A stretch of DNA of 64,000 nt from a virus (taxonomy: Duplodnaviria; Heunggongvirae; Uroviricota; Caudoviricetes): the IMG/VR virus record IMGVR_UViG_3300036790_000261, positions 24,725 through 88,724 of that record; one strand, written 5' to 3'. The position numbers and the translations under genes were made by a program. The notes beneath the pieces are model-generated. The model saw only the letters and a list, made by a program, of their open reading frames with translations, made no database searches and had not been told where the DNA came from. Shown here one piece after another: positions 21,201-45,262 of this stretch. How positions within the stretch are numbered: position 1 is the stretch's first letter; each line of letters starts with the position of its first letter.

Positions 21201-23484
21201 GAGCTCCCTGTTCCAGACGCTGTCCTCGTTCAGCTACACCACGGCGACGCACACCTCGGGCACCGCGGGCAGTTCGTGCGCGCAGGGCGTCGGCATGGTC
21301 CTCGTCCAGTCGACTGCGCCGGTGCAGGACCTGACCGTGCAGGACTCGGCGGGCAACGTCTACCTGAACCAGGGGCAGCAGGGCGGCGGCACCGGCGGGG
21401 CAACGGGCTGCGTGTACCTGTTCACCGCGCCGCTGGTCTTCCCGATTACCACCGGCACCACCCTGGCCCTGGCCTCGGCGACCGCCCAGCAGTACGGGGC
21501 GATCTGGTACGCCTCACCGTGGGCGCTGGACGCCACCGGCTCCAACACCGGGCAGGCCAACGGCACCGGCACCGCGCTGAGCGGCCAGTTCGGCGTAGCC
21601 GACAACGTCTCCGCGCAGTACGAGCTCGTCGTCGCCTTCAACGCCACCAGCCAGAGCTTCGGCACCCCGACGTTCGGCGGTAAGCTCTGGTACGCCCCTG
21701 GCTCGACGAGCTCACTGACCTCGGGCAGCCTCTCGATGCAGGCGTACGTCGGGCTGAACGAGGGAGGCGGCACCGGAAGCGCTAACGGTGACGCCTTCGC
21801 CCTAACGCTGGGCGGCTCGTCGAGCTGGGCGGTGCTGTGCATCCCGATCCTGGCGGCGAGCCAGCAGGCGTACGTACCGCAGCTCGACTGGCGGGCCGGC
21901 ACCACCCCGGGCACCTCTACTACCTGGGGCACGGACTGCTCAATCTCCGCTGAGGGCATGATCGCGGTGGTCGGCATGGCCGGCTCCGGCAGCGGCATCA
22001 CCGCAGGCCCGTCGGCTGTCTCTGACCAGGGCGGGAACGCCTACACGATCCAGAGCACCACGCTGCTGCCCGCTAACGGCGGGGTAATGTTCCTGGCGAC
22101 CGCCCCGGTGACCGCAGCGATGGCGCAGGGCGCGTCCGGTACCGTCAGCTGGGGTCATGCGTCGGGCGCACCCAATTACTGGACGGCCGCGTACTGGATT
22201 CCCAACGCAACAGGCCTCGACGGGGTGTCTGCTGTCACCGGCAACAGCGGCACCCCGTCGGGGACGTACGCACCGAACAGCACGAGCCCGATGGCGCTGG
22301 CGTTCCTCGGCAACGCGGTCAGTGTTACCGCTGCCTCCGGCATGGCCGCGCCGTGGAACTACCTTGACCTCAACAACCAGAACTACCTGACCGGCCAGAC
22401 GTGGGCCAGCCAGGTTACCGACCGCACGGCCGTTACCGCCGCGACCACGATGACGTCGGACCCGTGGGGGCTGATGCTGATCGGCTTCGCGATGTCCGTG
22501 CGGGCAGCAGGCGGCGGCGCGGCGGGCGGGCCCGGTAACGCGGGGTACCCGTCTACCTTCTACGCGGGCGGCCCCGGGTACTCCGGCGGCGGCAAGGGCG
22601 GGCTCGGCGCGCAGTCCCTGAACACCCAGGGCGGCGGCGCCAGCCTGCCCGGAGGCGGCGGCGGCGGGTCGTTCGGCTCGACCACCACCTCGATCGAGGG
22701 CGGGCAGGGCGGGCAGGGCGCGGCCAGGCTTACCTATTCTCCGCCGCTCACCCCGTTCAACACGCTGCTCGTGCACCGGCCCGGCACTAACGCGAACCAG
22801 AACCTCAACCCGCTGGTGCCCATCCCGTTCTCCGACGTGCCGAATAACACCCAGTACGTCGTCGCCAACGCGGTGCAGCCGAACGTCAACGCGGTGTTCA
22901 ACTCGACCTACTCGGTGCTGCTAGTCAGCCACACCTGGAACTCCGCGACCCTCGGGGTAGCCCGCACGGTCACCGTGACCATCTCGCAGTTTGAGTACCA
23001 GGGCGGCCCGGCCAGCTCGGTGCAGGTCAGCCGGTCGATCGTGCCCGCTACCGACATCGTCAACGGCATCGTCAACATGGGCGACGTCACGTTGCCGATC
23101 AAGGACTACGCCAAGTTCAACGACCAGTCGTACTTCACGGTCTCGATCAACGACACCGACCAGTCGGACCGCTACATGGACGTGCTTTTCCTCGATACGA
23201 CCGGGCAGACTGTCCTGCTGAATATCGACCCGTCGCAGCCGGGCTACAACAGCTACGTCAACTACTACATCGACGAGCCCACCGCCGACCGGGACCTCGG
23301 GTTCATCGGCGGCACCACCCAGGACCGGCAGCACAACGTCTCGCTGATGGAGTACACGTTCATCTCCGGCGGCCCGCTGTACATCGGCGCGGGCGACAAC
23401 CTGCTGCTCACCTACAGTCCAAGTGGGGCGCCCAGTCTAGGGGTATCGTATTCTCCTCGCTGGTACCTAGATAGAATAGTGTGA
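18250..23484 (+). CDS. minor tail/fibre protein, glycine-rich (Gly_rich-type repeats)
   Basis: 1744 aa; repeated modules GGGGxGxxYAxE...VVPGTxYxIxVGAGG; poly-Gly/(GGC)n tracts. Confidence 0.6.
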   Translation: MPAYSGSSFPYWMTIQDNGSTANAGAVSENIPVTVGTSYTFTVSAAYSGFFSGGVKLTLEWFTSGGTPISTVTATSGAMSPDEIVTFSTASTAAPSSAAFAIATVALNGLPGEANVLSVFAAAVTPAGSVPVNLNYAFTWTFWPWTPSNSATLGWQADQFLLNNSDSLTLAHTIELMGGAGGVSCQAIPELLDSNGVGPRYRILAPPSLNSAAFGYESSYDLNAPQPTQDVVASMLLDGERPFGTRASNRTISLPVIIFGTLAGGMRQVLAAREYLMSLIDQQTWEIAWTPADTGKPLIYDAFRALPSVPVYGMNHSAGGAASNSTVGRANYPIALITLTVQALPYGRSDIDGVQTLPVSNSLINAPVPPGAQLLDNFSVVTPGMGWVQDESKFVQGGTASIRYDAPVPLSSPYPAAVYAAALSSPVSIMGLPAVSVWLGQAYDTQWPAAPTFASNVTLAWTLLDGSERALSFSTTHNAAAWGASPSTPKWTLVSAPVPQGNQNFSYGNVVAYSVRLTNWAGSGNTGFVRMHAWLNDLTANPQTVANQASPRGILYNLFSLPGSARAPVNVQCQLPATAPVVQEITSPASGTWIVPPAVYALQAEAWGGGGSGATVNQSRPTAGAGGGGGEYAAESLLAVVPGTAIPYSLGAGGTPSQIQQTVIDQTVPGLHNWVAPANVTSLLVECFGGGAAGAAGAGGGGAGGYSSSTLTVVPGTSYLISVGAGGMANTGTTSADNAARNGGASWFGASTATGPSNALVAASGGTSPQTGTASGGSGGNNAGCPGTTQFPGGNGGHAPGGGGGGGGGCGGHSGHGGHGRAPNANGNGAAWCGNGQGGNGNGQGGGGGNGSSAPGTPSGGSSPGGGGGGGFCGSFFQFAAQAAQATPGQAQVNYMGANGANGMVQLTYAIGNGNPVNGGATTFGSSATTGVTVTANGGSSAAINAATGAAGGSGSANTVHASGGAGGLDTGTSMGSWMLGPSVSSLFQTLSSFSYTTATHTSGTAGSSCAQGVGMVLVQSTAPVQDLTVQDSAGNVYLNQGQQGGGTGGATGCVYLFTAPLVFPITTGTTLALASATAQQYGAIWYASPWALDATGSNTGQANGTGTALSGQFGVADNVSAQYELVVAFNATSQSFGTPTFGGKLWYAPGSTSSLTSGSLSMQAYVGLNEGGGTGSANGDAFALTLGGSSSWAVLCIPILAASQQAYVPQLDWRAGTTPGTSTTWGTDCSISAEGMIAVVGMAGSGSGITAGPSAVSDQGGNAYTIQSTTLLPANGGVMFLATAPVTAAMAQGASGTVSWGHASGAPNYWTAAYWIPNATGLDGVSAVTGNSGTPSGTYAPNSTSPMALAFLGNAVSVTAASGMAAPWNYLDLNNQNYLTGQTWASQVTDRTAVTAATTMTSDPWGLMLIGFAMSVRAAGGGAAGGPGNAGYPSTFYAGGPGYSGGGKGGLGAQSLNTQGGGASLPGGGGGGSFGSTTTSIEGGQGGQGAARLTYSPPLTPFNTLLVHRPGTNANQNLNPLVPIPFSDVPNNTQYVVANAVQPNVNAVFNSTYSVLLVSHTWNSATLGVARTVTVTISQFEYQGGPASSVQVSRSIVPATDIVNGIVNMGDVTLPIKDYAKFNDQSYFTVSINDTDQSDRYMDVLFLDTTGQTVLLNIDPSQPGYNSYVNYYIDEPTADRDLGFIGGTTQDRQHNVSLMEYTFISGGPLYIGAGDNLLLTYSPSGAPSLGVSYSPRWYLDRIV

Positions 23485-23498
23485 CGGGGGGTACCTGA

Positions 23499-26400
23499 GT
23501 GACCTCGACCCCCCCGAAGCCAAGCCTGCTCAAGTCCACCGCGCTCGCCCAGGCCACGGCGGTGGCCAACCGGCTGAACTCCCTGCTGCCCACGGTGCCG
23601 AGTGCCGAGTCGCCGGTCACCGTGTACCAGGCGGGCACCATCGGGGTGGGCGGGCAGCTGAGCGCGCCTACCTCGGTGTTCCCGGTCGGCACCGGCTATT
23701 ACGGGGTGTGGACGGCGCCGGACCTGAACGACGGCAAGCCGTACACGATGCAGGTGGAGTGCTTCGGCGGCGGCGGCGGCGGCGGGGGCGGGTCCTCCAC
23801 TTCGGGCGGCGGCGGCGGGGGCGGGGCTGAGTACGCCCGGGAGACCTCGTACCCGGTCAAGCCCGGCGTCAACTACGTCTACGTGGTGGGAGTACCCGGC
23901 TCGGCGGGCACGGCGAACAACGACGACAACCAGGGCGCGACCGCGGGCGGCACCGGGGGGCTGACCGTATTTGACATCGCCGGAAGCGGCGTCGCGGGCG
24001 GCGTGCAGGCCAACGGGGGCCAGGGCGGGGATGTCGGCAATACCGGCATCGGCGGGAACGGGGGCCTGGGCAGCTTCAACACCACTGAGTTCCAAGGTGG
24101 CCCGGGTGGTACCAACCTTCCAGGCGGCGGGGGCGGTTCCGGCGGCCAGGGCGGTACCGACAATCCCATCGCACTGCTGAACGCAGGGCTGCTGAGCTCG
24201 CCGCCGGTCGCCTGGTACCTGATGAACGACGCGTCGTCCAACGGGCAGCTGAACGACAACAGCGGCGACGACAACCCGGCTAACCCGGGCAGCTACGGCG
24301 GCGGCGGCCTCGCCTACGGGCAGCCGGGAGCCCCGTCCCAGGTCCCCGCGTACGTCAGCCCCGGCAACCCGCCGAGCTCCCCCAACCCGACGACCGCCGG
24401 AACCCAGCTGCGGTTCGTCCTCGCCCAGCTGAACCAGCAGTCCGGTTACGCGCTGTGCCCCGGCTTCGCCTTCTCCGGGCACCAGGTCACCGTCTCGGGC
24501 TGGGTGACCCCGGACCCGACGGGCACCTGGGGCAACACCGCGACCGGCTCGCGGGCGGTCATCGCCACTAACTGCACGGGGTACGCGAACTCCAGCACCG
24601 CGGGCGTCGCCCTGTACTTCAAGAACTCCGGCACCAGCGCTCACCCGAGCTGGACGCTGAACTTCTACTGCGCTAGCTCAGGCTCGCACCAGACGGTCAG
24701 CGTCAGCGTCCCGCCGGTCGCGAACACCCCGGTCTACGTGGCGGCCACCTTCAGCTCCGGCGCGATGACCGTGTACGTCAACGGCACCTCGGCGGGCACG
24801 GCCACCGCGGGCTTCAGCAGCCTGCCCGGCTTCCCGACGGTGCCGTTCGGCGTGACGCTGGGCGCGGACCCGCGGATCACCACCGACTGGTTCTTCGGCT
24901 ACATGTCCAACCTGTGGTTCTCGCCCGGCGTGCTGAGCTCAGCGGGCGTGACCCAGGCGTTCAGCGGCTCCGGCGGCAGCTCAACCGAGGGCGGGGCCGG
25001 CGGCGGCGCGTCGGGCGGGCCGGCGGCACTCGGCGGCGCCGGGGCGGCAGGCAGCGGGTCGACGGGCGGGGCCGGGGGGACACCCGCTACCCAGCCTGCG
25101 ACAGACGTCGGCCTGAACACCCCGGCCTCAGCGGGCATCGCGGGCGCGGCGGGTAACGCCGGCAACCCGGGTATCACCGGCGCGGCGGGCGCGGGCGGCG
25201 GCGGGGCAGGCAGCTCGACGTCACCCCCGAATATCGTCACCGTCCAGGTGCCGTTCGTCACGGCGGCCTCTTACTGCGGGACGGACGCGACCGGCGGCAG
25301 CGCGGGCACGGTGTACAACCCGGTCATCCAGGGCGCCACCGGGCGGCTGTTCACCGGCGGCCAGTCGCAGGACGCGGCATCGGGCTCCAAGAACTCTCTG
25401 CTGGTCCTGCCGCCCAGCCTGGCGGCCAGCCTGCAGCCGGGCAGCTTCACCGTGCTCCGGGTGACCCTGACGGTAACCAGCGCTAACCCGCAGGCGGCGC
25501 AGAACGCGCTGATGCAGGTCGGCTGGGCGGCCGACACGTTCCTGCCGATCACCTACGACGCGAGTGACACCGCGGGCTCGGCGGGCGTGGTGGAGATCCC
25601 GGCCGGGGCGTTCACCGTCACCGCGGACCTGACCGAGTCTCAGCTGGGCGCGTTCCTGCAAAACGGCGGCGCTAAGGCGCTGGTTCTCGGCCCTGGCCCC
25701 AGCCCGACCTTCGCCGCTTACAACTCCGACACCGCGGCTGACTTCTACACGGCTGTCTACGGGCCGGGCGCGGTAGACAGCGCGGGCAACAGCCTGGCCC
25801 CGTTCCTTACGGTCACCTACGCGCAGTCGACGACCGTGCAGCAGGGGTCGCCCGGCGGCGCGGGCGCGGTGCTGCTGACCTTCCTCAACCAGGCGCAGAC
25901 ACTGGTCGGCAACTGGACCGCCGCGGACGGCATCAACGCCTCCGGCGGCCAGCTCACTGAGACGACGGTCGTACTCGGCTCGACCTTGCAGGACGCTGCC
26001 CGGATGAACGCGATCCGCGAGCAGGTCAGGGCTGAGGTCAAGGCGGAGAACCGCGCGATGATCAGGGAGGCGATGGCCCGGCTCGGCTCGGTTCCGGGGG
26101 CGCCGGGCACCCTGCTCGGCTACACGGCGGGCATGACCACGGTTACCCAGACGACGCCGGGTACCTACACGTTCACCGTGCCTTCTGACGTCACCTCGCT
26201 GAGCGTCGCCTGCTGGGGCGCGGGCGCGGGCGCTACCGGGGGCAGCACCAGCCAGGGGCAGGGCGGCGGCGGCGGCGGCGCGTACGCGGGCGAGCCGAAC
26301 TACAACGCCGCCCCGGGTGACGTGCTCACTTACATTGTCGGGGCGGGCGGCGCCGGGGACCACGTCGGGTCGAATAATTCGCCGGACGGCGGGTTCAGCG

Positions 26401-27464
26401 CGTTCGACACCCTTAACATCGACGGTCCCGGGGTCCTGGCTAACGGCGGCCAGCATTACAGCAGCAGCCGCAACTTCGGGCCCGGCGGCACGACCTCGGG
26501 CAACACCGTCAGCTTCGCCGGCGGCAACGGCGGCCCGCTGAACTCCGGGCAGAACAACGGCTCCGGCGGCGGCGGCTCGGCGGGCGCGGGCGGTAACGGC
26601 GGCGGCGGCAACTCGGGTGTCACCGGCGGCCACGCGGGCTCGGGCGGCGGCGCGGCGGGCGGCGCGGGGTCTACTAACGGCAGCGGCTCAGGCGGCAGTG
26701 CGCCGGGTGCGGGCGGCGGCGGCGCCAGCCAGGGCACCAGTGCGTTCACCGGCGGCTCGGGCGCTAACGGCAAGGTCGTCATTACCTACGTCTCGTCCAC
26801 CGCGCTGGCGACCTCGATCGCGACGGCCTCAGGCAGTGACGCGGCGGGCAACCCGTACCCGACCGGCATCGGCACGACTGAGCTCGCGGTGAGCGGCACC
26901 ACCACGACGGCGAACCAGATGGTCAGCAACACCACCACGACCAACGTGCTCGCCGTCACCACCAACGCCACCGTCGGCGGCAACCACACCGTCACCGGCA
27001 ACGTCGCGGTCGGCGGCGTCATCACCGGCCCGTCGGGCGGCACCCTGGAGTCCAGCAGCGGCGTGCACGTAGCCGGCGCCACCCTGATAGACGGCGGCCT
27101 GACCGTCAGCAGCACCGGGGCGAGCATCAGCGGCGGCACCGACACCGACTCGCTGACGGTCAGCGGCGGCTCGACAACTGAGCTCGCCGCCGGCCTGCAC
27201 GCGGGCGGTGCCATCCTGGCTGACGGCGGGCTGACCAGCACGACCATCGTCACCGCCAACGGCTCCGGTACCAGCGAGTACACCGGCGGCATTCACGCGG
27301 GCGGTGCCGTCCAGGCCGACGGGGGCTTCATCGGGCCGGCCATCCCGGGGTTCCCGGTTTCCATGGGCGTGACCATCGGCACTGTGTCCGGCTCCGGCTC
27401 CAACGTGATTGCTACCGGCGGGCTCGTCAACCTGCTCAACGCCATCAACTCGGCACTGACTTAG
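23499..27464 (+). CDS. minor tail/fibre protein, glycine-rich
   Basis: 1321 aa; same module type (ECFGGGGGGGG...AEYARE...VKPGVNYVYVVGVPG); C-terminal beta-rich repeats. Confidence 0.6.
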   Translation: MTSTPPKPSLLKSTALAQATAVANRLNSLLPTVPSAESPVTVYQAGTIGVGGQLSAPTSVFPVGTGYYGVWTAPDLNDGKPYTMQVECFGGGGGGGGGSSTSGGGGGGGAEYARETSYPVKPGVNYVYVVGVPGSAGTANNDDNQGATAGGTGGLTVFDIAGSGVAGGVQANGGQGGDVGNTGIGGNGGLGSFNTTEFQGGPGGTNLPGGGGGSGGQGGTDNPIALLNAGLLSSPPVAWYLMNDASSNGQLNDNSGDDNPANPGSYGGGGLAYGQPGAPSQVPAYVSPGNPPSSPNPTTAGTQLRFVLAQLNQQSGYALCPGFAFSGHQVTVSGWVTPDPTGTWGNTATGSRAVIATNCTGYANSSTAGVALYFKNSGTSAHPSWTLNFYCASSGSHQTVSVSVPPVANTPVYVAATFSSGAMTVYVNGTSAGTATAGFSSLPGFPTVPFGVTLGADPRITTDWFFGYMSNLWFSPGVLSSAGVTQAFSGSGGSSTEGGAGGGASGGPAALGGAGAAGSGSTGGAGGTPATQPATDVGLNTPASAGIAGAAGNAGNPGITGAAGAGGGGAGSSTSPPNIVTVQVPFVTAASYCGTDATGGSAGTVYNPVIQGATGRLFTGGQSQDAASGSKNSLLVLPPSLAASLQPGSFTVLRVTLTVTSANPQAAQNALMQVGWAADTFLPITYDASDTAGSAGVVEIPAGAFTVTADLTESQLGAFLQNGGAKALVLGPGPSPTFAAYNSDTAADFYTAVYGPGAVDSAGNSLAPFLTVTYAQSTTVQQGSPGGAGAVLLTFLNQAQTLVGNWTAADGINASGGQLTETTVVLGSTLQDAARMNAIREQVRAEVKAENRAMIREAMARLGSVPGAPGTLLGYTAGMTTVTQTTPGTYTFTVPSDVTSLSVACWGAGAGATGGSTSQGQGGGGGGAYAGEPNYNAAPGDVLTYIVGAGGAGDHVGSNNSPDGGFSAFDTLNIDGPGVLANGGQHYSSSRNFGPGGTTSGNTVSFAGGNGGPLNSGQNNGSGGGGSAGAGGNGGGGNSGVTGGHAGSGGGAAGGAGSTNGSGSGGSAPGAGGGGASQGTSAFTGGSGANGKVVITYVSSTALATSIATASGSDAAGNPYPTGIGTTELAVSGTTTTANQMVSNTTTTNVLAVTTNATVGGNHTVTGNVAVGGVITGPSGGTLESSSGVHVAGATLIDGGLTVSSTGASISGGTDTDSLTVSGGSTTELAAGLHAGGAILADGGLTSTTIVTANGSGTSEYTGGIHAGGAVQADGGFIGPAIPGFPVSMGVTIGTVSGSGSNVIATGGLVNLLNAINSALT

Positions 27465-32447: not shown

Positions 32448-32561
32448 GCAGGACTCACTTCCTGTTTTCGGGGGTGTGCATGCCTGATCTTAACTTACGT
32501 CGCACAGTAGGTATTCCGTTACCTCCGCTGGAATGTCGGGGTCCCTCGCTAAGCTGGCCGC

Positions 32562-32981
32562 ATGACAAGTGTGGACAGGGCAATCGCCGACGCGCTGACT
32601 GCCGAGTACCAGGGGCGGACCCAGCTGACCGGCCAGCCTGAGGTCGTCATCGTGGACGTACCGCCGGAGAGCAAGCTAGAGCAGCTGCTGTGCCTGGAGG
32701 AGAAGCTGCGCAGCGCGCACGAGGCGGCCGACGCCAACTGGGACGAGTGGAAGAAGGCGGTCAGCGGCGAGCTCGGCAGGCTGTACCCCGGTGAGGCCGC
32801 CCCGACCAAGGCATTCGAGATCACCGGCGGCCCGATGTGGAAGGCGCTGACGGTCAGCTGGCGCAACGGCAAGGAGTACCTGCCGACCACCCTGATCAAG
32901 CAGCACATCCCGCAGGTGTGGAACGCGTTCAAGAAGACGTCCGCGGGATACTGGGACATCAGGCGAAAGGGCAAGCGGTGA
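32562..32981 (+). CDS. hypothetical protein
   Basis: ATG with GGAGG-type SD. Confidence 0.4.
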   Translation: MTSVDRAIADALTAEYQGRTQLTGQPEVVIVDVPPESKLEQLLCLEEKLRSAHEAADANWDEWKKAVSGELGRLYPGEAAPTKAFEITGGPMWKALTVSWRNGKEYLPTTLIKQHIPQVWNAFKKTSAGYWDIRRKGKR

Positions 32982-33166
32982 GCCTGTCTAACGTCTGGGC
33001 CGAGGATCTCGACGACGTGTCCCTGACCTTCCTGTACCGCATCCTGAACCGGATGATCGAGAACGGGCACAGGGGGCTTGAATCAAAAAGCGAGCAGGAC
33101 ATCGCATGGGCGGTCAAGCATGAGTACGAGGAGCGGGCTGCGCTACCAGACACGCGGGTGTTCTAG
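32978..33166 (+). CDS. small hypothetical protein
   Basis: GTG overlapping upstream stop (GTGA). Confidence 0.3.
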   Translation: MSLSNVWAEDLDDVSLTFLYRILNRMIENGHRGLESKSEQDIAWAVKHEYEERAALPDTRVF

Positions 33167-34999
33167 ATGGGCCTGGCATCGGAGTTCATGGCCTCAGCAC
33201 CGCGCTCTCCTAATGCCAGCGACGCGTGGGCAGAGCGGTACGGCGGGGAGCTGCGCGGGATCGTCACCCGGTACGCCGCGCGGATGCCCCGGTCCGTGCA
33301 GAAGCACCTCGGCCCCTCGGAGCTCGGGCACGAGTGCCTGTCTGGCGACACCGAGGTAGTGACCCGTTACGGTCTCCGTCAGATCTCGGAGCTGGCGGGC
33401 GCTGAGCCCGAACTGCTCGTGCCGATGCGGTACGAGGGAAGCGAGATCCGGAAGCACTGGGGCAGGTTCCAGCAGGTTCCTGTCACCTGCTTCGGTGAGC
33501 GTGAGCTGCTTAAAGTCACACTGCGCCGGAATCAGGCAACGAAAGTCATCCACGCGACGGCAGACCATCACTGGTTCCGTTCGTACTGGTCGGGCAAGGT
33601 CAAGAAGCAGGAACGCCTTGCCACGACTGAGCTGAGACCAGGGCACAAGCTCACGCAGCTCCGCCGGGCGATGCCACGGACGACCGCGCTGATGCCTGTC
33701 GCCGTTGCGCAGGGGTTCGTGTTCGGTGACGGTACGAAGGGCAGCAGTGACAGCAAGCATCGGGCCGCCGTCCTGAGCCTGTACCAGAACGGCAAGGACG
33801 AGGCGATGCTGCGCTTCTTCCCGGGCGAGCACAAGCAGTACAAGGACTCCGGTCACGCGCATACCTACATCCGGAACCTGCCTCGTTACTGGAAGGAGCT
33901 TCCTCCTGTCGATGAGTCTTGCTCGTTCCTGGTCAGCTGGCTGGCCGGCTACTTCGCTGCCGACGGTTCAGTGGGCGCTGATGACGGGCACTGCTCGATC
34001 TCGTCCGCCGACTGGGCGCACCTGGATTTCGTGCGCAGCGTCGCTGCTGTCTGCGGAATCGGGTACGGGCAGGTTACGACTGGGCTGCGCATCGGGATCA
34101 GCGGGAGCAAGCCCGCGGCAAAAGCAACTCCGCTGTACCGGCTCAGCCTCCGGCGCAGAGACCTGCCTGCGTGGTTCTTCCTGGTCGAGGAGCACCGTCG
34201 CCGGGCAGAAACTGCTAACGCTACCGCTGAGCGTGATCCACACTGGCTGGTCGAGTCTGTCGAACCGACGGGCCGCGTTGAGCCGGTGTACTGCGCGACG
34301 GTTGAAGGCGCTCACGCTTTCGGCCTTGCCGATGACCTGATGACAGGCAACTGCGACCGCCAGGTAGTGGCGAAGATGTCGGGCAGCCCAGTTACTAATC
34401 ACGTGGCGGACCCGTGGGCGTCGATCATGGGCACGGCCGGGCACGCGTTCGTCGCGGACGCATTCGACTGGGACAACAAGCACAACAACTACCTGCGCTG
34501 GCTGACTGAGGCACGGGTTACCCCCGACCCCGGTCCCGACCCGCACCCCGGCACCGCTGACCTGTATGACACCTACAGCCGCTGCGTGATCGACCACAAG
34601 TTCCAGGGTGACTCCACCCGGGGCAGGCTGAAGTCCAAGGGCCCGCCGCGGCACTACTACGTGCAGCTGCTGCTCTACCGGCAGGGCTACCTGAACCTGG
34701 GGCTGCCCGTCGAGCGGGTGGTGATCGTCAGCTGGCCGCGAACGAAGTCGACACTGGACGACATGTACGTGTGGTCGCACGTGCCGGTCCCGGAGGACGA
34801 CCTGCTGGTGCGCGACGTGCTGGCGGCGACGGGGTTCCGGCAGTACCTCGCTGCCCTGGTGCGCGCCGGGCAGTTCGACCTGATGGACGTTCCCGCTGTG
34901 CCGGAAGATAACGAGTGCTATTTTTGCGGTCTCTACCGGCCCCAGTCGGCCCATGACGGCAAGTACGGCTGCGCGGGGACGCTGATGAAGGAGAAGTGA
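33167..34999 (+). CDS. Cas4/RecB-family PD-(D/E)XK exonuclease interrupted by an intein
   Basis: Exteins: DLYD...CVIDHKF...YYVQLLLYRQGY (D/ExK and QxxxY motifs) plus 1+3 Cys cluster (GHEC / CYFCG...YGC); intein between. Confidence 0.65.
   Translation: MGLASEFMASAPRSPNASDAWAERYGGELRGIVTRYAARMPRSVQKHLGPSELGHECLSGDTEVVTRYGLRQISELAGAEPELLVPMRYEGSEIRKHWGRFQQVPVTCFGERELLKVTLRRNQATKVIHATADHHWFRSYWSGKVKKQERLATTELRPGHKLTQLRRAMPRTTALMPVAVAQGFVFGDGTKGSSDSKHRAAVLSLYQNGKDEAMLRFFPGEHKQYKDSGHAHTYIRNLPRYWKELPPVDESCSFLVSWLAGYFAADGSVGADDGHCSISSADWAHLDFVRSVAAVCGIGYGQVTTGLRIGISGSKPAAKATPLYRLSLRRRDLPAWFFLVEEHRRRAETANATAERDPHWLVESVEPTGRVEPVYCATVEGAHAFGLADDLMTGNCDRQVVAKMSGSPVTNHVADPWASIMGTAGHAFVADAFDWDNKHNNYLRWLTEARVTPDPGPDPHPGTADLYDTYSRCVIDHKFQGDSTRGRLKSKGPPRHYYVQLLLYRQGYLNLGLPVERVVIVSWPRTKSTLDDMYVWSHVPVPEDDLLVRDVLAATGFRQYLAALVRAGQFDLMDVPAVPEDNECYFCGLYRPQSAHDGKYGCAGTLMKEK
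33335..34351 (+). mobile_element. intein (339 aa) with LAGLIDADG homing endonuclease
   Basis: N-splice CLSGDTEVV, block B TADHH, LAGLIDADG LVSWLAGYFAADGSVG, C-splice VYCATVEGAHAFGLADDLMTGN followed by Cys. Confidence 0.7.
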
Positions 35000-35088
35000 T
35001 GGGGTCTGTCACCTGCCTGCGCGGGTGCCCGTACTACGTTAAGGAGAACGGCGTCTGGGTGTGCGGCGTGTGCAGGACCCTGAGGTAG
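34999..35088 (+). CDS. 29-aa zinc-ribbon peptide
   Basis: ATG overlaps upstream stop; CxxxC...CxxC. Confidence 0.3.
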   Translation: MGSVTCLRGCPYYVKENGVWVCGVCRTLR

Positions 35089-35096
35089 GAGGCGCG

Positions 35097-35348
35097 GTGT
35101 ACCACGCGGAGCTGAACATGAACGAGGCCCGGCGCCGCGTGGTGCTGTCCACCGTCGGGGACACCGTCGCCGGGGACGTCTTCTACCTGGTTTCCGACCC
35201 GGCGGAAGTCTGGCTGCGGGTCTACCCGGCGGCGCACGAGTACCCGTTCGTGAAGTTCGGGGTCGACGTGTGGCACTCGGTCGAGACCCTCGGCGACCTG
35301 CGGGAGCGGGTCATCATCATCCACAACACCAAGGAGAGCAGCACGTGA
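35097..35348 (+). CDS. hypothetical protein
   Basis: GTG with GGTAGGAGG SD. Confidence 0.4.
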   Translation: MYHAELNMNEARRRVVLSTVGDTVAGDVFYLVSDPAEVWLRVYPAAHEYPFVKFGVDVWHSVETLGDLRERVIIIHNTKESST

Positions 35349-36007
35349 CTCAGCAGGGATACCGGCACCGGATCGTCATCCAGGACCGGTCAGGAAGCAT
35401 GGGCCAGATCCTCGAAGGCGCGCAGAGCGGCCTGGACGAGTTCATCGCCGGCGAGGCGAAGCTGCCGGGCAAGGTGACGGTCAGCCTGTGGGACTTCGAT
35501 ACTGAGATCCGCTGCGTGCACTCGCTGGCGGAGGCGGTCCTCGGGTACAAGATCGAGCCGCGCGGCGGAACTGCGATGTACGACGCGATCGGCGACGCGG
35601 TGACCGAAGAGGGCCGGAAGCTCGCGGCCCTGCCCGAGGACGAGCGGCCGGAAGACGTCACGATGATCATCGCGTCCGACGGGCTGGAGAACCGCTCCGT
35701 GAATTACACCGGCCAACAGGTGAGGGAAATGCTGGAGCACCAGCAGGGCTACTACAAGTGGCGGGTCATCTACATGGGCTGCAACCAGGACGCGCTGAAG
35801 GAAGGCGCGAAGATGGGCACCCAGTCGGGGCTGACGGTGAACACGGCTGGCACCAACTCCGGCGCTTCCAGGGGCTGGAAGATGTCATCGGACTACATGA
35901 GCCGGGTTCCCGTTGCCTCGGCGGCCTCCGGTCAGAGCGTCTTCTTCACCCCGAAGGAGCGGGCGCTTGGCGAGTCTGCCGAAGAGGCTGGCCCCGAGGA
36001 GGAGTAG
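35345..36007 (+). CDS. von Willebrand factor A (vWA) domain protein
   Basis: MIDAS DRSGSM, TAMYDAIG, IASDGLEN motifs; GTG with AAGGAGAG SD. Confidence 0.65.
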   Translation: MTQQGYRHRIVIQDRSGSMGQILEGAQSGLDEFIAGEAKLPGKVTVSLWDFDTEIRCVHSLAEAVLGYKIEPRGGTAMYDAIGDAVTEEGRKLAALPEDERPEDVTMIIASDGLENRSVNYTGQQVREMLEHQQGYYKWRVIYMGCNQDALKEGAKMGTQSGLTVNTAGTNSGASRGWKMSSDYMSRVPVASAASGQSVFFTPKERALGESAEEAGPEEE

Positions 36008-36314: not shown

Positions 36315-37688
36315 TTGACTCAGCAGCCTTACCAGCAGCAGCAGGGATACCCCGGGCAGCCGAATTACGCTCCCGCCCCGGGGTACCCTCCTGCTCAGCC
36401 CGGTTACGCCGTTCAGCCGTACCAGCAGCAGCCTCCCCCTCAGCAGTACTACAGCCCGCAGCCCGCTCCGACCGGGTACCAGCCCCAGCAGCCGGGTTAC
36501 CCGCCGCAGAACGGCTACGGCCAGCCGCCCCAGCCCCCGCAGCCCGAACTGCCGCGCGGCAGCCTCAAGGACTACGTTGACCAGCCCGCGGGCGGCTTCG
36601 GCCCGTCGCTCGCGTTCCCCCAGGCGGGCACCCAGTACTGGTGCACCGTCGCGCGGAACGTCGGCGACGCGGACATCAAGCCGCAGACTGACATGATCAC
36701 CGGCGAGGTGCGGACGTTCCCGGACGGCCGGGTCAAGTGGATGATGTGCGTCCCGGTGCTGATGCAGCCGTCCCCGCAGTACCCGGAGGGCATCGCCACC
36801 TGGTACGTGAAGGGCAACGACCGCGCCGAGATGACCCGCGCGATGGAAGCGGCCGGCGTCGGGATCGACCCAGCGACCGGCACCCTGTTCCCGCCGCGCG
36901 CCGGCGACACCTTCCACGTGCACTTCACCCACGAGTCGGCCAGCAGCGGCAAGGGCCGGAACCCGACGAAGGTCAAGCGGGTCACCTACACGATGGGCAA
37001 CGGCGAGGCCCCGCCCCCGCAGGTCGTGCAGGGCCAGGTCATTCAGGCGTACCAGCAGGCGACGGGTCAGCAGATGCCCGGGGCCTTCAGCCAGCCGACG
37101 ATGCAGATGGCCCAGCCTGCCCTTGCGCAGCCGCAGAACCCGACGCAGCAGCTCCCGCCTGTTCTGCAGGGTTACAACCCCCAGCCGGGCTTCGCCTTTC
37201 AGCAGCCGCAGCTCTCGTACCCGCAGAACCCGCCGCAGCAGCCTCAGTACCAGCAGCCTCAGGTTCAGAACAGCATGCAGGGCGCTCCTGTTCCCCAGAA
37301 CGGTTACCAGCAGCCCGACTCTGCACTGGCGTACCAGCAGGCGACGGGCCAGCAGATGCAGCCTCAGCAGCCGGGCCCGTACGGTCAGCCGAACGCGGAC
37401 TGGAACCCGTACGCGCAGCAGCCTCAGCCTCCCCAGCAGCAGTTCGACCCGGCTCAGGCTCAGCAGTTCCAGCAGCAGTACCAGCAGCCGGCGTTCCCTA
37501 CGCCTGCGCCGCCTGTCCCGGGTGGTCCCCCTTCGGGTCCTGCTCAGCCCTCGGGTGCGCCGTCCCCTTCTAGTCCCCCGCCTGGCTGGCCAGCTGACGT
37601 GCCGTTCATGGAGGGGCTGACCCCGGAGATGGCCCGGGTCGCGGCGTCGGTGAAGTACCCGGGCACGCAGATGCCCCCTCAGCAGTAG
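36315..37688 (+). CDS. Pro/Gln-rich protein with central globular domain
   Basis: Low-complexity PQ-rich N- and C-termini flanking ~200-aa ordered core. Confidence 0.45.
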   Translation: MTQQPYQQQQGYPGQPNYAPAPGYPPAQPGYAVQPYQQQPPPQQYYSPQPAPTGYQPQQPGYPPQNGYGQPPQPPQPELPRGSLKDYVDQPAGGFGPSLAFPQAGTQYWCTVARNVGDADIKPQTDMITGEVRTFPDGRVKWMMCVPVLMQPSPQYPEGIATWYVKGNDRAEMTRAMEAAGVGIDPATGTLFPPRAGDTFHVHFTHESASSGKGRNPTKVKRVTYTMGNGEAPPPQVVQGQVIQAYQQATGQQMPGAFSQPTMQMAQPALAQPQNPTQQLPPVLQGYNPQPGFAFQQPQLSYPQNPPQQPQYQQPQVQNSMQGAPVPQNGYQQPDSALAYQQATGQQMQPQQPGPYGQPNADWNPYAQQPQPPQQQFDPAQAQQFQQQYQQPAFPTPAPPVPGGPPSGPAQPSGAPSPSSPPPGWPADVPFMEGLTPEMARVAASVKYPGTQMPPQQ

Positions 37689-43423: not shown

Positions 43424-45262
43424 GTGACCACTGTCTTCGGGGAGCTTGACCCGACGGGGGAGTTCATCCTCGTCACGGTGGTGGGCGGCGGGGATCATGA
43501 GCGGGCCCAGTGCGCGGCGCTGCTGCAGGCCATGACCCCCGCCATCAACCCGACGGCGAACCCGGAGGTGATCGCGGTCCCGCTGTCCTGGTCGGCGGTC
43601 ACCCAGCTGGCGCACGACTTCACCGGGGAGCCTGCGTGGGACGGGCGGCCGGGGCTAGCCTGGACCCCGGGAGAGCAGCTGTGCAAGTGGCTGCTGGCGG
43701 AGATCATCCGCCGCTCGTGCGACGGGGACTGGGTCGGTGAGTGGCCGAAGCGGGAGCCGATGGCGCACCAGCGGGCGGGCGGGATCGCCGTCGGGATGAA
43801 CGGGCGGTTCCTGTTCGTCGACGACATGGGCACAGGTAAGGGCGGCTGCTACCTGATGGGCCTGGCCGGGCTGGAGGCACGTAACCGGAACCCGTGGCCC
43901 GCGCTGTTCGTCTGCCCGGCCAGCGTGGTGGACACCATCCTGGAGGAGGTCCCGTTCTGGTACCCCGACTGGAAGGCGGTCGCTTACCGCGGCACCGGGC
44001 GGCAGAAGTACCTGAAGTCGAACGCGCGCATCCTGGTGATGGGGTACGAGACGATGCGCAACGACACCGGGGACTCAGCTAAGCCGGGGCCGCTGCTGAA
44101 GCTGAACGCGGGCACGCTGATCGGCGACGAGTGCCACATGCTCTGCAATTACGACAGCCTGCAGTCGCGCAAGTTCCGGCTGCTGGCTAAGCACGTGCGG
44201 AACGTGGTCCCCGGGTCGGGCACGCCGATCACCGTGAACGCGGCGGGCTTCTGGCCGGTGCTGAACTCGATGTACCCGGGCAGCTACCCGAGCCGGGACC
44301 GGTACAAGAAGTACTACTGCATAGGGCGCAAGGCGCAGTACGGCAACGGGGACCGGGAGGTCACCGGGATCAACCCGCTGCGCGACAAGCAGTTCCGGGC
44401 CGAGATGCAGGGGGTGTTCCGCCGGGTCGCCCTTGAAGACGTGTGGGACATGCCGCCGAAGTCCTACCAGGTGCGGTACGTGGAGATCCCGGCTGCCTGG
44501 CGGGCTGCGTACAACCAGATGGAAGAGGACATGCTGGCGGAGCTGCCCGACCAGATGACCCCGCTGGAGGCGAACGTCGCGGTGGTGAAGATGATGCGGC
44601 TGCGGCAGCTGGCCTGCTCGGCGTGCGACGTCGAGGTCACCCGGGAGATCGAGATGAACCTGCGGTCACCGAAGTACGGTACCGAGGTGGCGCGCACTAA
44701 GGTCACCTTGAAGGAGCCGTGCTGGAAGGGCGCCGCACTGGTTTCGCTGCTCGACGAGCTGCACCAGGCTGAGGGCGAGCACGACGAGCTCGGCAGGCAG
44801 TACGGGCACACCGTCGGGTCGCGTCCGGTACTCGCGTTCGCCGAGTCATCTCAGCTAGTCAGGGTGGCCGGGGCGATGGCGGAGAAGAAGGGGTACACCG
44901 TCGGGTACTTCGACGGGGACGTGAAGAACAAGGACCGGACTGCGGCCCGGCTCGCGTTCCAGGACAATAAACTCGACCTGCTGTGCGTTACGACAGGGGC
45001 GGGCGGTGTCGGGCTGAACCTAACTGCGGCCGGCGACGTGGCGTTCCTGGCTAACCCGTGGGGGTACGTGCCCCGGGTGCAGTCCGAGCGGCGGGCATGG
45101 CGCCGCGGGCAGGACAAGCCGGTGATGATCTACGACTTCGTTACCAAGGACAGCGTTGAGAGCCGGGTGGCGGCGCGGCTGCGGGAGAAGGCAGTGAACT
45201 TGGCGGATTTGGTGCAAGATCGCCGGATCGCGGAAGAGTTCTTGGGGGGCAACAAGCACTAG
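43424..45262 (+). CDS. SNF2/RAD54-family helicase
   Basis: DEAH-box LIGDECHMLCN, helicase C motif VI RAWRRGQDKPVMIYDFV. Confidence 0.75.
   Translation: MTTVFGELDPTGEFILVTVVGGGDHERAQCAALLQAMTPAINPTANPEVIAVPLSWSAVTQLAHDFTGEPAWDGRPGLAWTPGEQLCKWLLAEIIRRSCDGDWVGEWPKREPMAHQRAGGIAVGMNGRFLFVDDMGTGKGGCYLMGLAGLEARNRNPWPALFVCPASVVDTILEEVPFWYPDWKAVAYRGTGRQKYLKSNARILVMGYETMRNDTGDSAKPGPLLKLNAGTLIGDECHMLCNYDSLQSRKFRLLAKHVRNVVPGSGTPITVNAAGFWPVLNSMYPGSYPSRDRYKKYYCIGRKAQYGNGDREVTGINPLRDKQFRAEMQGVFRRVALEDVWDMPPKSYQVRYVEIPAAWRAAYNQMEEDMLAELPDQMTPLEANVAVVKMMRLRQLACSACDVEVTREIEMNLRSPKYGTEVARTKVTLKEPCWKGAALVSLLDELHQAEGEHDELGRQYGHTVGSRPVLAFAESSQLVRVAGAMAEKKGYTVGYFDGDVKNKDRTAARLAFQDNKLDLLCVTTGAGGVGLNLTAAGDVAFLANPWGYVPRVQSERRAWRRGQDKPVMIYDFVTKDSVESRVAARLREKAVNLADLVQDRRIAEEFLGGNKH

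What the first reader, a model, noticed from the sequence alone, without database searches (positions are those of the whole stretch)
33335..34351. LAGLIDADG intein inserted at the first Fe-S cysteine of a Cas4/RecB-like exonuclease
The 610-aa ORF splits cleanly into exteins (56 + 215 aa) and a 339-aa intein. The exteins carry PD-(D/E)XK motifs (DLYD, IDHK, QLLLY) and a 1+3 cysteine cluster. The intein shows all hallmark blocks: CLSGDTEVV, TxxH, LAGYFAADG and VYCATVEGAHAFGLADDLMTGN followed by Cys. It is inserted exactly at the conserved N-terminal Cys that ligates the Cas4 Fe-S cluster, a functionally critical site as expected for inteins. Inteins are known in actinophage terminases and helicases. 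A Cas4-family nuclease host site is less commonly reported.
Basis: partly seen in the sequence, partly recalled or inferred. Interest (0 to 1): 0.6.

Follow-up and report, generated by a model that had tools for sequence, protein, structure and literature searches.

The report
Homing intein in phage Cas4-like nuclease
A phage DNA-repair nuclease gene is interrupted by a self-splicing, mobile protein element (an intein) sitting exactly on a cysteine that probably holds the enzyme's iron-sulfur cluster; this is a real example of a well-known phenomenon, at an insertion site absent from the intein papers I could read.

The parts
33167..34999 (+). Precursor gene: Cas4-like exonuclease interrupted by an intein (610 codons + stop)
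   Evidence: ORF list and translation. Orthologues of about 610 aa with the same architecture, P0005 to P0030.
33167..33334 (+). N-extein, 56 aa, ending in the conserved LGPSELGHE (33308-33334)
   Evidence: Collinear with intein-free allele L001 832-1005 at 92% nt identity. L48, G49, P50, S51, E52 and G54 are invariant in 57 homologues.
33335..34351 (+). Intein, 339 aa (Cys1 to Asn339)
   Evidence: Precise 1017-bp insertion relative to L001. AF2 pLDDT 95. Foldseek matches to TliVMA intein 7qsu (E=1.6e-13), PI-PfuI and PI-SceI. GC3 is 0.767 against 0.875 and 0.888 in the exteins.
33335..33664 (+). N-terminal splicing (HINT) half: block A 33335-33373 (CLSGDTEVVTRYG); block B 33542-33583 with T75, H78 and W80 (B:7, B:10, B:12)
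   Evidence: C1, T75, H78 and W80 are invariant in 67/67. The alignment to DnaE inteins places W80 on B:12. TIGR01445 scores 19.2 bits, below its cut-off of 24.5.
33665..34222 (+). Nested LAGLIDADG homing-endonuclease domain: motif 1 at 33692-33742 (..AQGFVFGDGTKG, Asp132); motif 2 at 33923-33973 (..WLAGYFAADGSV, Asp210). Domain borders are approximate.
   Evidence: Foldseek matches to I-DmoI (E about 2e-5). PF14528 scores 20.4 bits against a cut-off of 22.5. Asp132 is kept in 66/67 and Asp210 in 67/67.
34223..34351 (+). C-terminal splicing half: block F 34280-34330 (EPVYCATVEGAHAFGLA, Cys320 at F:4); block G 34331-34351 (DDLMTGN: Thr337 at G:5, Gly338 at G:6, Asn339 at G:7)
   Evidence: C320 67/67, T337 66/67, G338 63/67, N339 67/67. 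C320 aligns with the Asp of DnaE 'VYDIGV'.
34352..34354 (+). Cys+1 (TGC): the splicing nucleophile and also the first of the four invariant extein cysteines (putative Fe-S ligand)
   Evidence: +1 Cys in 66/66. It corresponds to C57 of P0121, invariant in 57 intein-free homologues together with C245, C248 and C263.
34352..34996 (+). C-extein, 215 aa: nuclease core with motif II GTADLYD (34550-34570), motif III IDHK (34583-34603), QLLLY (34661-34690), CYFC (34913-34930) and the last Cys (34961-34978)

Best explanation
This is a genuine intein with a nested LAGLIDADG homing endonuclease, in the Cas4-like PD-(D/E)XK exonuclease gene of an uncultured high-GC tailed phage, most likely of an actinobacterium. 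It is very probably functional. Protein level (inferred from conserved residues): the 610-aa precursor folds. Cys1, assisted by the block B Thr75/His78, forms a thioester at the ...GHE|C junction. Cys+1 takes over the N-extein. Asn339 cyclises and releases the intein. The exteins are then joined as ...ELGHE-CDRQVV..., giving a 271-aa nuclease. Because Cys+1 is the first of the four invariant cysteines (1 + CxxC...C), the presumed [4Fe-4S] 'staple' between the N- and C-terminal parts of the nuclease can form only after splicing. DNA level (inferred): the LAGLIDADG domain, with both catalytic Asp retained, cuts intein-less alleles at ...GGGCACGAG|TGCGACCGCCAG... during co-infection. Repair then copies the intein in (homing). 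This explains its patchy distribution among near-identical phages. Shown here: exact boundaries, the precise indel against an intein-free allele, both folds, residue conservation, purifying selection on the exteins, and composition and distribution signatures of mobility. Inferred: splicing itself, the class 1 route, endonuclease activity and Fe-S binding.
For: Boundaries and motifs.

Intein-free allele: L001 is collinear with the window at 92-94% nt identity, with a clean 1017-bp gap bounded by TGC on both sides. Its protein P0121 is 96.7% identical to the joined exteins.

Contiguity: the joined exteins hit phrog_1674 end to end, E=1.9e-52. They also match about 33%-identical 'Cas4 family exonuclease' genes in 365 actinophage records as single uninterrupted pieces in the rows shown.

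Intein fold: pLDDT 95, matching HE-containing inteins at E=1e-13 to 1e-9 and I-DmoI.

Catalytic residues: C1, T(B:7), H(B:10) and N(G:7) in 67/67, C+1 in 66/66, LAGLIDADG Asp in 66-67/67.

Extein selection: dN/dS = 0.045 against the intein-free allele (54 nt differences, 6 aa differences), so the interrupted gene is still under strong selection.

Mobility: the intein is more conserved than the extein between alleles (P0007: 74% against 53%), and the extein's closest relatives (97, 84, 82, 81%) are all intein-free. Intein GC3 is 0.767, against 0.84-0.93 in every other gene sampled. Only 1 of 80 IMG/VR loci of this exonuclease family has the site-a intein.

Penultimate residue: penultimate Gly is documented in splicing-competent mycobacteriophage inteins (Kelley 2016, PMC5050341).
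Against: No curated intein or LAGLIDADG profile reaches its threshold: PF14890 13 bits against 35.8, TIGR01445 19.2 against 24.5, PF14528 20.4 against 22.5.

The window's extein has no Pfam or NCBIfam hit, and its family profile finds no PDB sequence. The Cas4 link therefore rests on predicted structure, on PF12705 hits in 12 of 57 relatives and on annotations of homologues.

The penultimate His is missing. The residue aligning with the usual block F His (window His327) is not conserved in the subfamily, so Asn cyclisation must be assisted in another way.

Cys at F:4 together with Trp B:12 and Thr G:5 is the class 3 signature, so the class 1 route is not certain.

I could not read the model coordinates, so the spatial clustering of the four cysteines was not measured. 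The spacing CX2CX14C differs from the CX2CX5C that I recall for Cas4 and AddB.

Nothing here measures splicing, cleavage or metal binding.
Confidence: 0.85

Rival explanations
1. The intein does not splice by the standard class 1 route. It uses the block F cysteine (Cys320) as in class 3 inteins, or a three-cysteine relay (Cys1 to Cys320 to Cys+1). Alternatively Cys320 acts as a redox or metal switch that gates splicing.
For: The complete class 3 triplet is present and conserved: Trp B:12 in 67/67, Cys F:4 in 67/67, Thr G:5 in 66/67. Across the wider family the figures are 114, 113 and 108 of 119. The positions are as defined in Tori 2010 (PMC2807308) and Kelley 2016. In standard inteins F:4 is usually Asp. 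Strong conservation of Thr at G:5 is reported only for class 3 (PMC7891396). Tori 2010 found that 3 of 37 WCT inteins start with Ser or Cys and left their mechanism open. A block F Cys acts as a redox toggle in Msm DnaBi1 (PMC6195587).
Against: Cys1 is invariant (67/67 and 114/119), whereas class 3 inteins are defined by lacking it. The class 1 'spring-loading' Thr of TxxH is also invariant, whereas the class 3 DnaBi1 intein has Asp there. The +1 residue is Cys, which was unique among the class 3 inteins known in 2016. The family profile finds only class 1 DnaE inteins in the PDB, not the class 3 DnaB structures. [quoted passage not shown]
Confidence: 0.15
2. The element is a decaying or domesticated intein. 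It still splices, but the endonuclease is inactive and it is now inherited only vertically.
For: No activity data exist. The LAGLIDADG Pfam score is below its threshold. The closest intein-bearing allele, P0005, has similar intein and extein identities (77.5% and 78.8%), which fits co-descent within that lineage.
Against: Both catalytic Asp are conserved in 66-67/67, and the HE domain is full-sized and confidently folded. Inteins are 15-20 points more conserved than exteins across more distant alleles. A relative 93% identical in DNA lacks the intein. The GC3 deficit is not ameliorated.
Confidence: 0.2
3. The interrupted gene is a dead allele. The intein no longer splices and the exonuclease is dispensable or supplied in trans.
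For: Non-splicing intein pseudogenes exist, for example Arth_1007 (PMC3196547). This intein lacks the penultimate His, and the residue aligning with the block F His is not conserved in its subfamily.
Against: dN/dS is 0.045 on the exteins since divergence from the intein-free allele. All nucleophiles are intact. There are no frameshifts or stops. About 30 diverged alleles keep the same architecture.
Confidence: 0.04
4. The four cysteines bind zinc or form disulfides rather than an Fe-S cluster, so the site is a structural metal site and not a Cas4-type cluster.
For: The spacing CX2CX14C is unusual. The same intein family often sits in CxxC motifs that look like zinc ribbons (|CPFCGSGQ, |CFGCGEGG) in other hosts. 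No sequence profile links the N-terminal Cys to that of Cas4.
Against: The best structural matches are Cas4 proteins (4ic1, 7mi4, 8d3l, 4r5q), followed among others by the Fe-S nucleases Dna2, AdnAB and Exo5. From established knowledge, these share the arrangement of one N-terminal and three C-terminal cysteines. All four cysteines are invariant.
Confidence: 0.1

Closest known systems
Class 3 LAGLIDADG inteins in the Cas4/RecB-like exonuclease of actinophages (C1 mycobacteriophages; Kelley et al. 2016, PMC5050341; bioRxiv 10.1101/2025.01.02.630785)
   Same: Same kind of host protein (phage Cas4-family PD-(D/E)XK exonuclease). Same kind of element (intein with a LAGLIDADG endonuclease). Insertion in a catalytically essential motif. 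Patchy distribution.
   Different: Those inteins sit at RecB motif III (PD-(D/E)XK, 'EFKT'), lack an N-terminal nucleophile and are class 3. The window's intein sits at the first cluster cysteine, about 80 residues upstream of motif III in the spliced protein, and has Cys1 and Cys+1. It has no close relative in 50,697 phage records; there are only two hits, at 22-26% identity, in ribonucleotide reductase genes. Some relatives of the window's exonuclease (P0012, P0028) do carry a motif III intein in addition. That intein is 43.5% identical to the one in the Streptomyces phage Frankenweenie exonuclease.
Endonuclease-containing class 1 inteins with solved structures (PI-SceI, PI-PfuI, TliVMA/PhoVMA)
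   Same: Overall architecture of a HINT domain with a nested two-motif LAGLIDADG domain. Cys1, TxxH, terminal Asn and Cys+1. Foldseek E=1e-13 to 1e-9.
   Different: Sequence identity is 11-16%. The penultimate His is replaced by Gly, the block F Asp by Cys, and Trp sits at B:12. The intein is smaller (339 aa against 360-540).
WCT-triplet inteins that begin with Ser or Cys (3 of 37 WCT inteins in Tori et al. [quoted passage not shown]
   Same: The same combination of an N-terminal nucleophile with Trp B:12, Cys F:4 and Thr G:5.
   Different: I could not obtain the names or sequences of those three inteins (supplement not held; Tori & Perler 2011 not held), so common descent was not tested. The present family is far larger: 522 cluster representatives at E<=1e-30.
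CRISPR-associated Cas4 (SSO0001 4IC1, Pcal_0546 4R5Q, type I-C Cas4 8D3L) and related Fe-S nucleases (AddB, AdnB, Dna2, Exo5)
   Different: 12-16% identity. No hit to the Cas4 profiles. Not in a CRISPR locus but in a phage replication and recombination region. Longer spacing before the last Cys. No intein is known to me in true Cas4.

Membership tests
Intein (HINT splicing domain, class 1) | Nucleophile (Cys/Ser/Thr) as first residue | tested here: met
   Cys57 of the ORF is intein Cys1. Conserved in 67/67 and 114/119.
Intein (HINT splicing domain, class 1) | Block B TxxH | tested here: met
   T75 and H78 are invariant in 67/67. They align with the TKDH of DnaE inteins.
Intein (HINT splicing domain, class 1) | C-terminal Asn followed by Cys/Ser/Thr | tested here: met
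   Asn339|Cys. N in 67/67 and C+1 in 66/66.
Intein (HINT splicing domain, class 1) | Penultimate His (G:6) and block F Asp (F:4); typical but not obligatory | tested here: not met
   Gly338 (63/67) and Cys320 (67/67). Penultimate Gly, Lys or Ser is documented in functional phage inteins (PMC5050341).
Intein (HINT splicing domain, class 1) | HINT fold | tested here: met
   AF2 pLDDT 95, pTM 0.92. Foldseek matches 7qsu at 1.6e-13, 1dq3 at 1.8e-12 and 1vde at 1.3e-11.
Intein (HINT splicing domain, class 1) | Curated profile thresholds (PF14890, TIGR01445) | tested here: inconclusive
   13 bits against 35.8, and 19.2 bits against 24.5. The hits are in the right places but below the cut-offs.
Intein (HINT splicing domain, class 1) | Exteins contiguous in intein-less homologues | tested here: met
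   P0121 is 96.7% identical across the junction. The DNA gap is exactly 1017 bp. phrog_1674 is matched end to end.
Intein (HINT splicing domain, class 1) | Protein splicing demonstrated | not testable with these tools
   Indirect only: extein dN/dS = 0.045.
LAGLIDADG homing endonuclease | Two LAGLIDADG motifs, each with the catalytic acidic residue | tested here: met
   GFVFGD132G and GYFAAD210G. Asp kept in 66/67 and 67/67.
LAGLIDADG homing endonuclease | LAGLIDADG fold or profile | tested here: met
   Foldseek matches to I-DmoI at about 2e-5 and to the endonuclease domains of PI-SceI and PI-PfuI. The Pfam PF14528 score alone is just below its cut-off (20.4 against 22.5).
LAGLIDADG homing endonuclease | Site-specific cleavage of the empty allele, and homing | not testable with these tools
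   Indirect only: intein more conserved than extein, nearest exteins intein-free, GC3 deficit, 1 of 80 IMG/VR loci occupied at this site.
Cas4/RecB-like Fe-S PD-(D/E)XK exonuclease | RecB motifs II (D), III (D/ExK) and QxxxY | tested here: met
   D126, D137, K139, Q161 and Y165 are invariant in 57 homologues.
Cas4/RecB-like Fe-S PD-(D/E)XK exonuclease | Four cluster cysteines, one N-terminal and three C-terminal | tested here: met
   C57, C245, C248 and C263 are invariant. The spacing CX2CX14C is longer than the CX2CX5C I recall for Cas4 and AddB. 3D clustering was not measured.
Cas4/RecB-like Fe-S PD-(D/E)XK exonuclease | Cas4-like fold | tested here: met
Cas4/RecB-like Fe-S PD-(D/E)XK exonuclease | Curated sequence profiles (PF12705 PDDEXK_1; Cas4 models of Pfam and NCBIfam) | tested here: inconclusive
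   The window's extein has no Pfam or NCBIfam hit. 12 of 57 relatives hit PF12705 at E<=0.01, and the four re-scanned score 25-30 bits against a cut-off of 22. No Cas4-specific model was hit.
Cas4/RecB-like Fe-S PD-(D/E)XK exonuclease | Fe-S cluster bound; 5'-3' exonuclease activity | not testable with these tools
   None.
Cas4/RecB-like Fe-S PD-(D/E)XK exonuclease | Association with a CRISPR-cas locus (true Cas4) | not tested
   The neighbours are phage genes: tape measure, head-tail adaptor, helicase, glycosyltransferase. 'Cas4-like' describes the fold only.
Class 3 intein | Trp B:12, Cys F:4, Thr G:5 triplet | tested here: met
   W80, C320 and T337 are kept in 67/67, 67/67 and 66/67. The positions were confirmed by alignment to DnaE inteins.
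Class 3 intein | No Cys/Ser/Thr at position 1 | tested here: not met
   Cys1 is invariant. By definition the intein is therefore not filed as class 3.
Class 3 intein | Splicing initiated by Cys F:4 (block F branched intermediate) | not testable with these tools
   Needs C1A and C320A mutants.

The most novel reading that the evidence does not exclude
The intein belongs to a large, essentially uncharacterised clade (522 cluster representatives at E<=1e-30). The clade joins class 1 features (Cys1, TxxH) to the class 3 Trp-Cys-Thr triplet, usually lacks the penultimate His, and homes almost exclusively to metal-ligand cysteines: either Cys of CxxC motifs in many unrelated hosts, and two of the four cluster cysteines of this exonuclease, sometimes both in one gene. 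If the three active-site cysteines work as a relay or as a redox/metal gate, and the splicing nucleophile is itself the Fe-S ligand, maturation of the nuclease would depend on the redox or iron state of the infected cell. That would be a mechanistic intermediate between intein classes 1 and 3, with a regulatory role.
Probability: 0.12. Interest if true: 0.6.

Novelty: new member of a known kind. Interest (0 to 1): 0.35.

Why it matters
For annotation: the gene should be called as one intein-containing Cas4-family exonuclease. Automatic callers gave related sequences no function ('hypothetical protein', or 'LAGLIDADG DNA endonuclease family protein' for the whole precursor).

For intein biology:
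- It adds a new insertion site to the second commonest actinophage intein host.
- One small nuclease family can carry inteins at three essential positions: the first Fe-S Cys, the third Fe-S Cys and the motif III Lys.
- It points to a large metagenomic intein family, with a mixed class 1 / class 3 active-site signature, that specialises in cysteine motifs.

That family could be tested for how Cys F:4 functions when Cys1 is present. It could also supply cysteine-junction inteins for protein engineering. None of this overturns current understanding.

Tried and rejected
- Near-identity DNA search of 32500-35500 against 50,697 phage records found nothing, so the phage is uncultured.
- Pfam and NCBIfam on the joined exteins gave no hit. 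A profile of 57 homologues against PDB sequences gave only a spurious antibody hit. I had hoped for a residue-level alignment of Cys57 to the first Cys of Cas4, and did not get one.
- The intein alone against PDB sequences gave nothing. The family profile hit only DnaE inteins weakly.
- PHROGs on the intein gave no family.
- A second copy of the intein elsewhere in the window: none (tblastn).
- Neighbouring genes for a recombination partner (RecT/Erf-like): no informative PHROG hits.
- Tori & Perler 2011 (PMC3133030), which tested WCT inteins with N-terminal nucleophiles, is not held. The supplement of Tori 2010 listing those inteins is not held. A search for 'Tfu2914' found nothing.
- Model coordinates are not exposed to the script sandbox, so Cys-Cys distances could not be measured.
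- Rejected: chance ORF or antisense gene. The antisense ORFs 33194..33862 and 33968..34954 have no support, and the + frame is supported by hundreds of homologues.
- Rejected: a fusion of two genes or a free-standing endonuclease gene. There are no stops, the insertion is in frame, and the exteins rejoin exactly.
Full report
**1. The observation**

The ORF listing and translation show one ORF at 33167..34999 on the + strand, 610 aa. CLSGDTEVV starts at residue 57 (nt 33335). LMTGN ends at residue 395 (nt 34351) and is followed by Cys. The start codon ATG overlaps the stop of the preceding small ORF (TAGATG). The window is part of a tailed-phage genome of 66.7% G+C. It carries a tape measure gene at 13117-17997, a head-tail adaptor gene, a helicase gene at 43424-45262 and a glycosyltransferase gene. 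It has no near relative among 50,697 deposited phage genomes.

**2. Is the insert a clean insertion?**

Yes, at both the protein and the DNA level.

- The joined exteins (271 aa) match PHROG 1674 'exonuclease' from end to end (E=1.9e-52).
- They match about 33%-identical 'Cas4 family exonuclease' genes in 365 actinophage records, as single uninterrupted pieces in the rows shown.
- In the large metagenomic protein collection the best match to the joined exteins is P0121, 274 aa and 96.7% identical, reading ...SELGHECDRQVV... straight across the junction.
- P0121's contig (L001) is collinear with the window at 92-94% nucleotide identity for several kilobases. L001 832-1005 aligns to window 33163-33337, and L001 1003-1625 to window 34352-34974. 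The only difference in the gene is the presence of 1017 bp bounded by TGC on each side.

**3. What the insert is**

Curated profiles give only sub-threshold hits, all in the right places: LAGLIDADG_3 at 20.4 bits against a cut-off of 22.5, Intein_splicing at 13 against 35.8, and TIGR01445 at 19.2 against 24.5. Structure and family data are decisive.

- With an alignment of 67 relatives, AlphaFold2 gives pLDDT 95 and pTM 0.92.
- The model's best PDB matches are endonuclease-containing inteins: TliVMA at 1.6e-13, PI-PfuI at 1.8e-12 and PI-SceI at 1.3e-11. I-DmoI matches the central domain.
- Among the 67 relatives, Cys1, Thr75 and His78 (block B TxxH) and Asn339 are invariant, Cys+1 is present in 66/66, and the two LAGLIDADG aspartates are kept in 66/67 and 67/67.

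Two deviations from the textbook intein are also family-wide. The penultimate residue is Gly (63/67), not His. Block F position 4 is Cys (67/67), not Asp. The alignment to DnaE inteins confirms the register: VYCATV on VYDIGV, and HxW on HKF. Together with Trp80 at B:12 (67/67) and Thr337 at G:5 (66/67), this is the full 'WCT' triplet that defines class 3 inteins (PMC2807308, PMC5050341, PMC5222942).

Class 3 inteins, however, lack an N-terminal nucleophile, and the class 3 DnaBi1 intein has Asp in place of the TxxH Thr (PMC6195587). Here both Cys1 and that Thr are invariant. I therefore file it as a class 1-type intein with a class 3-like triplet. [quoted passage not shown] I keep a class 3-like or relay mechanism as a 15% rival. 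Penultimate Gly is documented in splicing-competent mycobacteriophage inteins.

**4. What the host protein is**

Fifty-seven intein-free homologues (52-97% identical to P0121) have invariant D126, D137-x-K139, Q161 and Y165, which are RecB motifs II and III and QxxxY. They have exactly four invariant cysteines: C57, C245, C248 and C263.

Sequence profiles are weak. The window's own extein has no Pfam or NCBIfam hit. The family profile finds no PDB sequence. PF12705 is hit in 12 of 57 relatives at E<=0.01, and the four re-scanned score 25-30 bits against a cut-off of 22, over motif III through the CxxC.

The AlphaFold2 model of P0121 is confident (pLDDT 91.3).

- By Foldseek, its best PDB match is Cas4 SSO0001.

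So 'Cas4-like Fe-S PD-(D/E)XK exonuclease' is well supported as a fold and motif assignment. That Cys57 (the +1 residue) is a cluster ligand remains an inference, because I could neither obtain a residue-level alignment to Cas4 nor read the model coordinates.

**5. Is it functional and mobile?**

- Between the window's exteins and the intein-free allele there are 54 nucleotide differences but only 6 amino-acid differences (dN/dS 0.045). The interrupted gene is under the same strong constraint as an uninterrupted one, which implies efficient splicing.
- The intein's GC3 is 0.767. The exteins have 0.875 and 0.888, and eight other genes of the window have 0.84-0.93.
- Between more distant alleles the intein is much better conserved than the exteins (P0007: 74% against 53%; P0008: 70% against 50%). 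The window extein's four closest relatives (97, 84, 82 and 81%) all lack the intein.
- Of 80 IMG/VR loci encoding this exonuclease family, only one carries an intein at this site. That sample favours uninterrupted alleles.

These are the expected signatures of a homing element that is repeatedly gained and lost. Endonuclease activity itself is untested.

**6. Wider family and insertion sites**

An exhaustive search of 1.84 billion cluster representatives finds 1,299 relatives of the intein, 522 of them at E<=1e-30. In contrast, the 50,697 phage records contain only two distant relatives, at 22-26% identity, both in ribonucleotide reductase genes.

Of 119 full-length family domains in these representatives:

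| Feature | Count |
|---|---|
| Cys1 | 114 |
| TxxHxW | 114 |
| Block F Cys | 113 |
| Thr at G:5 | 108 |
| Penultimate Gly | 88 |
| Penultimate His | 17 |
| Cys+1 | 106 |

The insertion points are strikingly cysteine-centred. Many lie before the second Cys of a CxxC: the exonuclease's own CYF|C, PAPS-reductase-like proteins (SCVF|C) and several unknown proteins. Others lie before the first Cys of a CxxC (|CPFCG, |CFGCG).

Within the exonuclease family there are three intein sites:
- (a) the first cysteine, as in the window;
- (b) the third cysteine, occupied by a paralogous intein of the same family;
- (c) after the motif III Lys, occupied by an unrelated intein that begins with Gly.

Proteins P0002, P0003, P0004 and P0006 and the IMG/VR locus L083 carry inteins at both (a) and (b). 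P0012 and P0028 carry (a) and (c).

A neighbour-joining tree of 113 family inteins places all 31 site-a inteins in one clade. That clade is nested among site-b inteins, with the inteins from other hosts mostly outside. The tree is midpoint-rooted with no support values, so this is only suggestive that site a was colonised from the CxxC site of the same gene.

**7. Comparison with what is known**

Inteins in actinophage Cas4/RecB-like exonucleases are well known. Kelley et al. 2016 counted 40 in C1 mycobacteriophages, the second largest group after terminase, at a single site in the PD-(D/E)XK motif. A 2025 survey counted 138 of 784, with the class 3 Cas4 inteins at motif III 'EFKT', and does not mention iron, Fe-S or a cysteine site. 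The site-c intein of P0012 belongs to that known group: it is 43.5% identical to the intein in the Streptomyces phage Frankenweenie exonuclease, and it also matches TerL and C1 'HNH endonuclease' genes.

So the host is not unusual. The insertion site and the intein lineage are what is new relative to the literature and to the sequenced phages I could search.

**8. Verdict**

The element is a new member, at a new insertion site, of a known kind. Interest is moderate (0.35). It comes mainly from the coincidence of splicing nucleophile and presumed cluster ligand, the multiple occupancy of one Fe-S site, and the large WCT-plus-Cys1 family that remains mechanistically untested.

Noticed in passing
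Not in the window: proteins P0002, P0003, P0004, P0006 (939-953 aa); IMG/VR locus L083 1978-3000 and 3568-4590: Orthologues of the window's exonuclease carry two paralogous inteins of the same family. One sits before the first cluster cysteine (as here) and one before the second Cys of the CxxC (CYF|C). In L083 the two copies are 71% and 47% identical to the window intein. Two of the four presumed Fe-S ligands are thus intein +1 residues in one protein. The window gene is empty at the second site (34913-34930).
   Followed up: partly
Not in the window: P0012 residues 482-822, P0028 residues 498-840: A third insertion site in the same exonuclease family lies directly after the motif III Lys (VDHK|). 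It is occupied by a 341-343-aa LAGLIDADG intein that starts with Gly, has Cys at block F:4, lacks an obvious block B His and Trp, and ends VHN|C. It is related to known class 3 inteins of actinophage exonuclease and terminase genes (Frankenweenie exonuclease 43.5%).
   Followed up: partly
Window 33542-33583, 34280-34351: The intein combines invariant Cys1 and TxxH (class 1) with the class 3 Trp(B:12)-Cys(F:4)-Thr(G:5) triplet, and has Gly in place of the penultimate His. The same holds for about 95% of 119 diverse family members.
   Followed up: partly
Proteins P0075-P0120 and P0241-P0370: This intein family is inserted almost always at cysteine motifs of unrelated hosts. Sites before the second Cys of a CxxC are found in PAPS-reductase-like proteins (PF01507), a PF12705 nuclease, a PF00476 DNA-polymerase-like protein and unknown ~500-aa proteins; one glycosyltransferase host (P0075) is interrupted at a Cys with no CxxC. 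Other sites lie before the first Cys of zinc-ribbon-like CxxCG motifs.
   Followed up: partly
Window 32984-33166 (+): A ~60-codon ORF (LSNVWAEDLDD...PDTRVF) lies between the conserved 139-aa gene (32562-32981) and the exonuclease. In the 93%-identical intein-free relative L001 it is replaced by 55 bp of unrelated DNA, and in L002 by a different 61-aa ORF. This is a small variable slot right next to the intein-bearing gene. It has no PHROG hit.
   Followed up: partly
Window 36315-37688 (+): A 457-aa protein is extremely rich in Gln, Pro and Tyr at both ends (MTQQPYQQQQGYPGQPNY...). It is conserved as a called gene in the relatives L001 and L003. It has no PHROG hit.
   Followed up: no
Window 33335-34351 versus the rest of the window: The intein's third-position G+C is 0.767, which is 0.07-0.16 lower than its own exteins and eight other genes of the window. 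This is a local compositional island coinciding exactly with the insert.
   Followed up: yes
Window 18250-23484 and 23499-27464 (+): Two very large ORFs (1744 and 1321 aa) lie downstream of the tape measure gene with almost no PHROG similarity. The only hit is a weak tail-fibre-assembly match in the first. They are probably tail or host-recognition proteins of an unsampled phage group.
   Followed up: no
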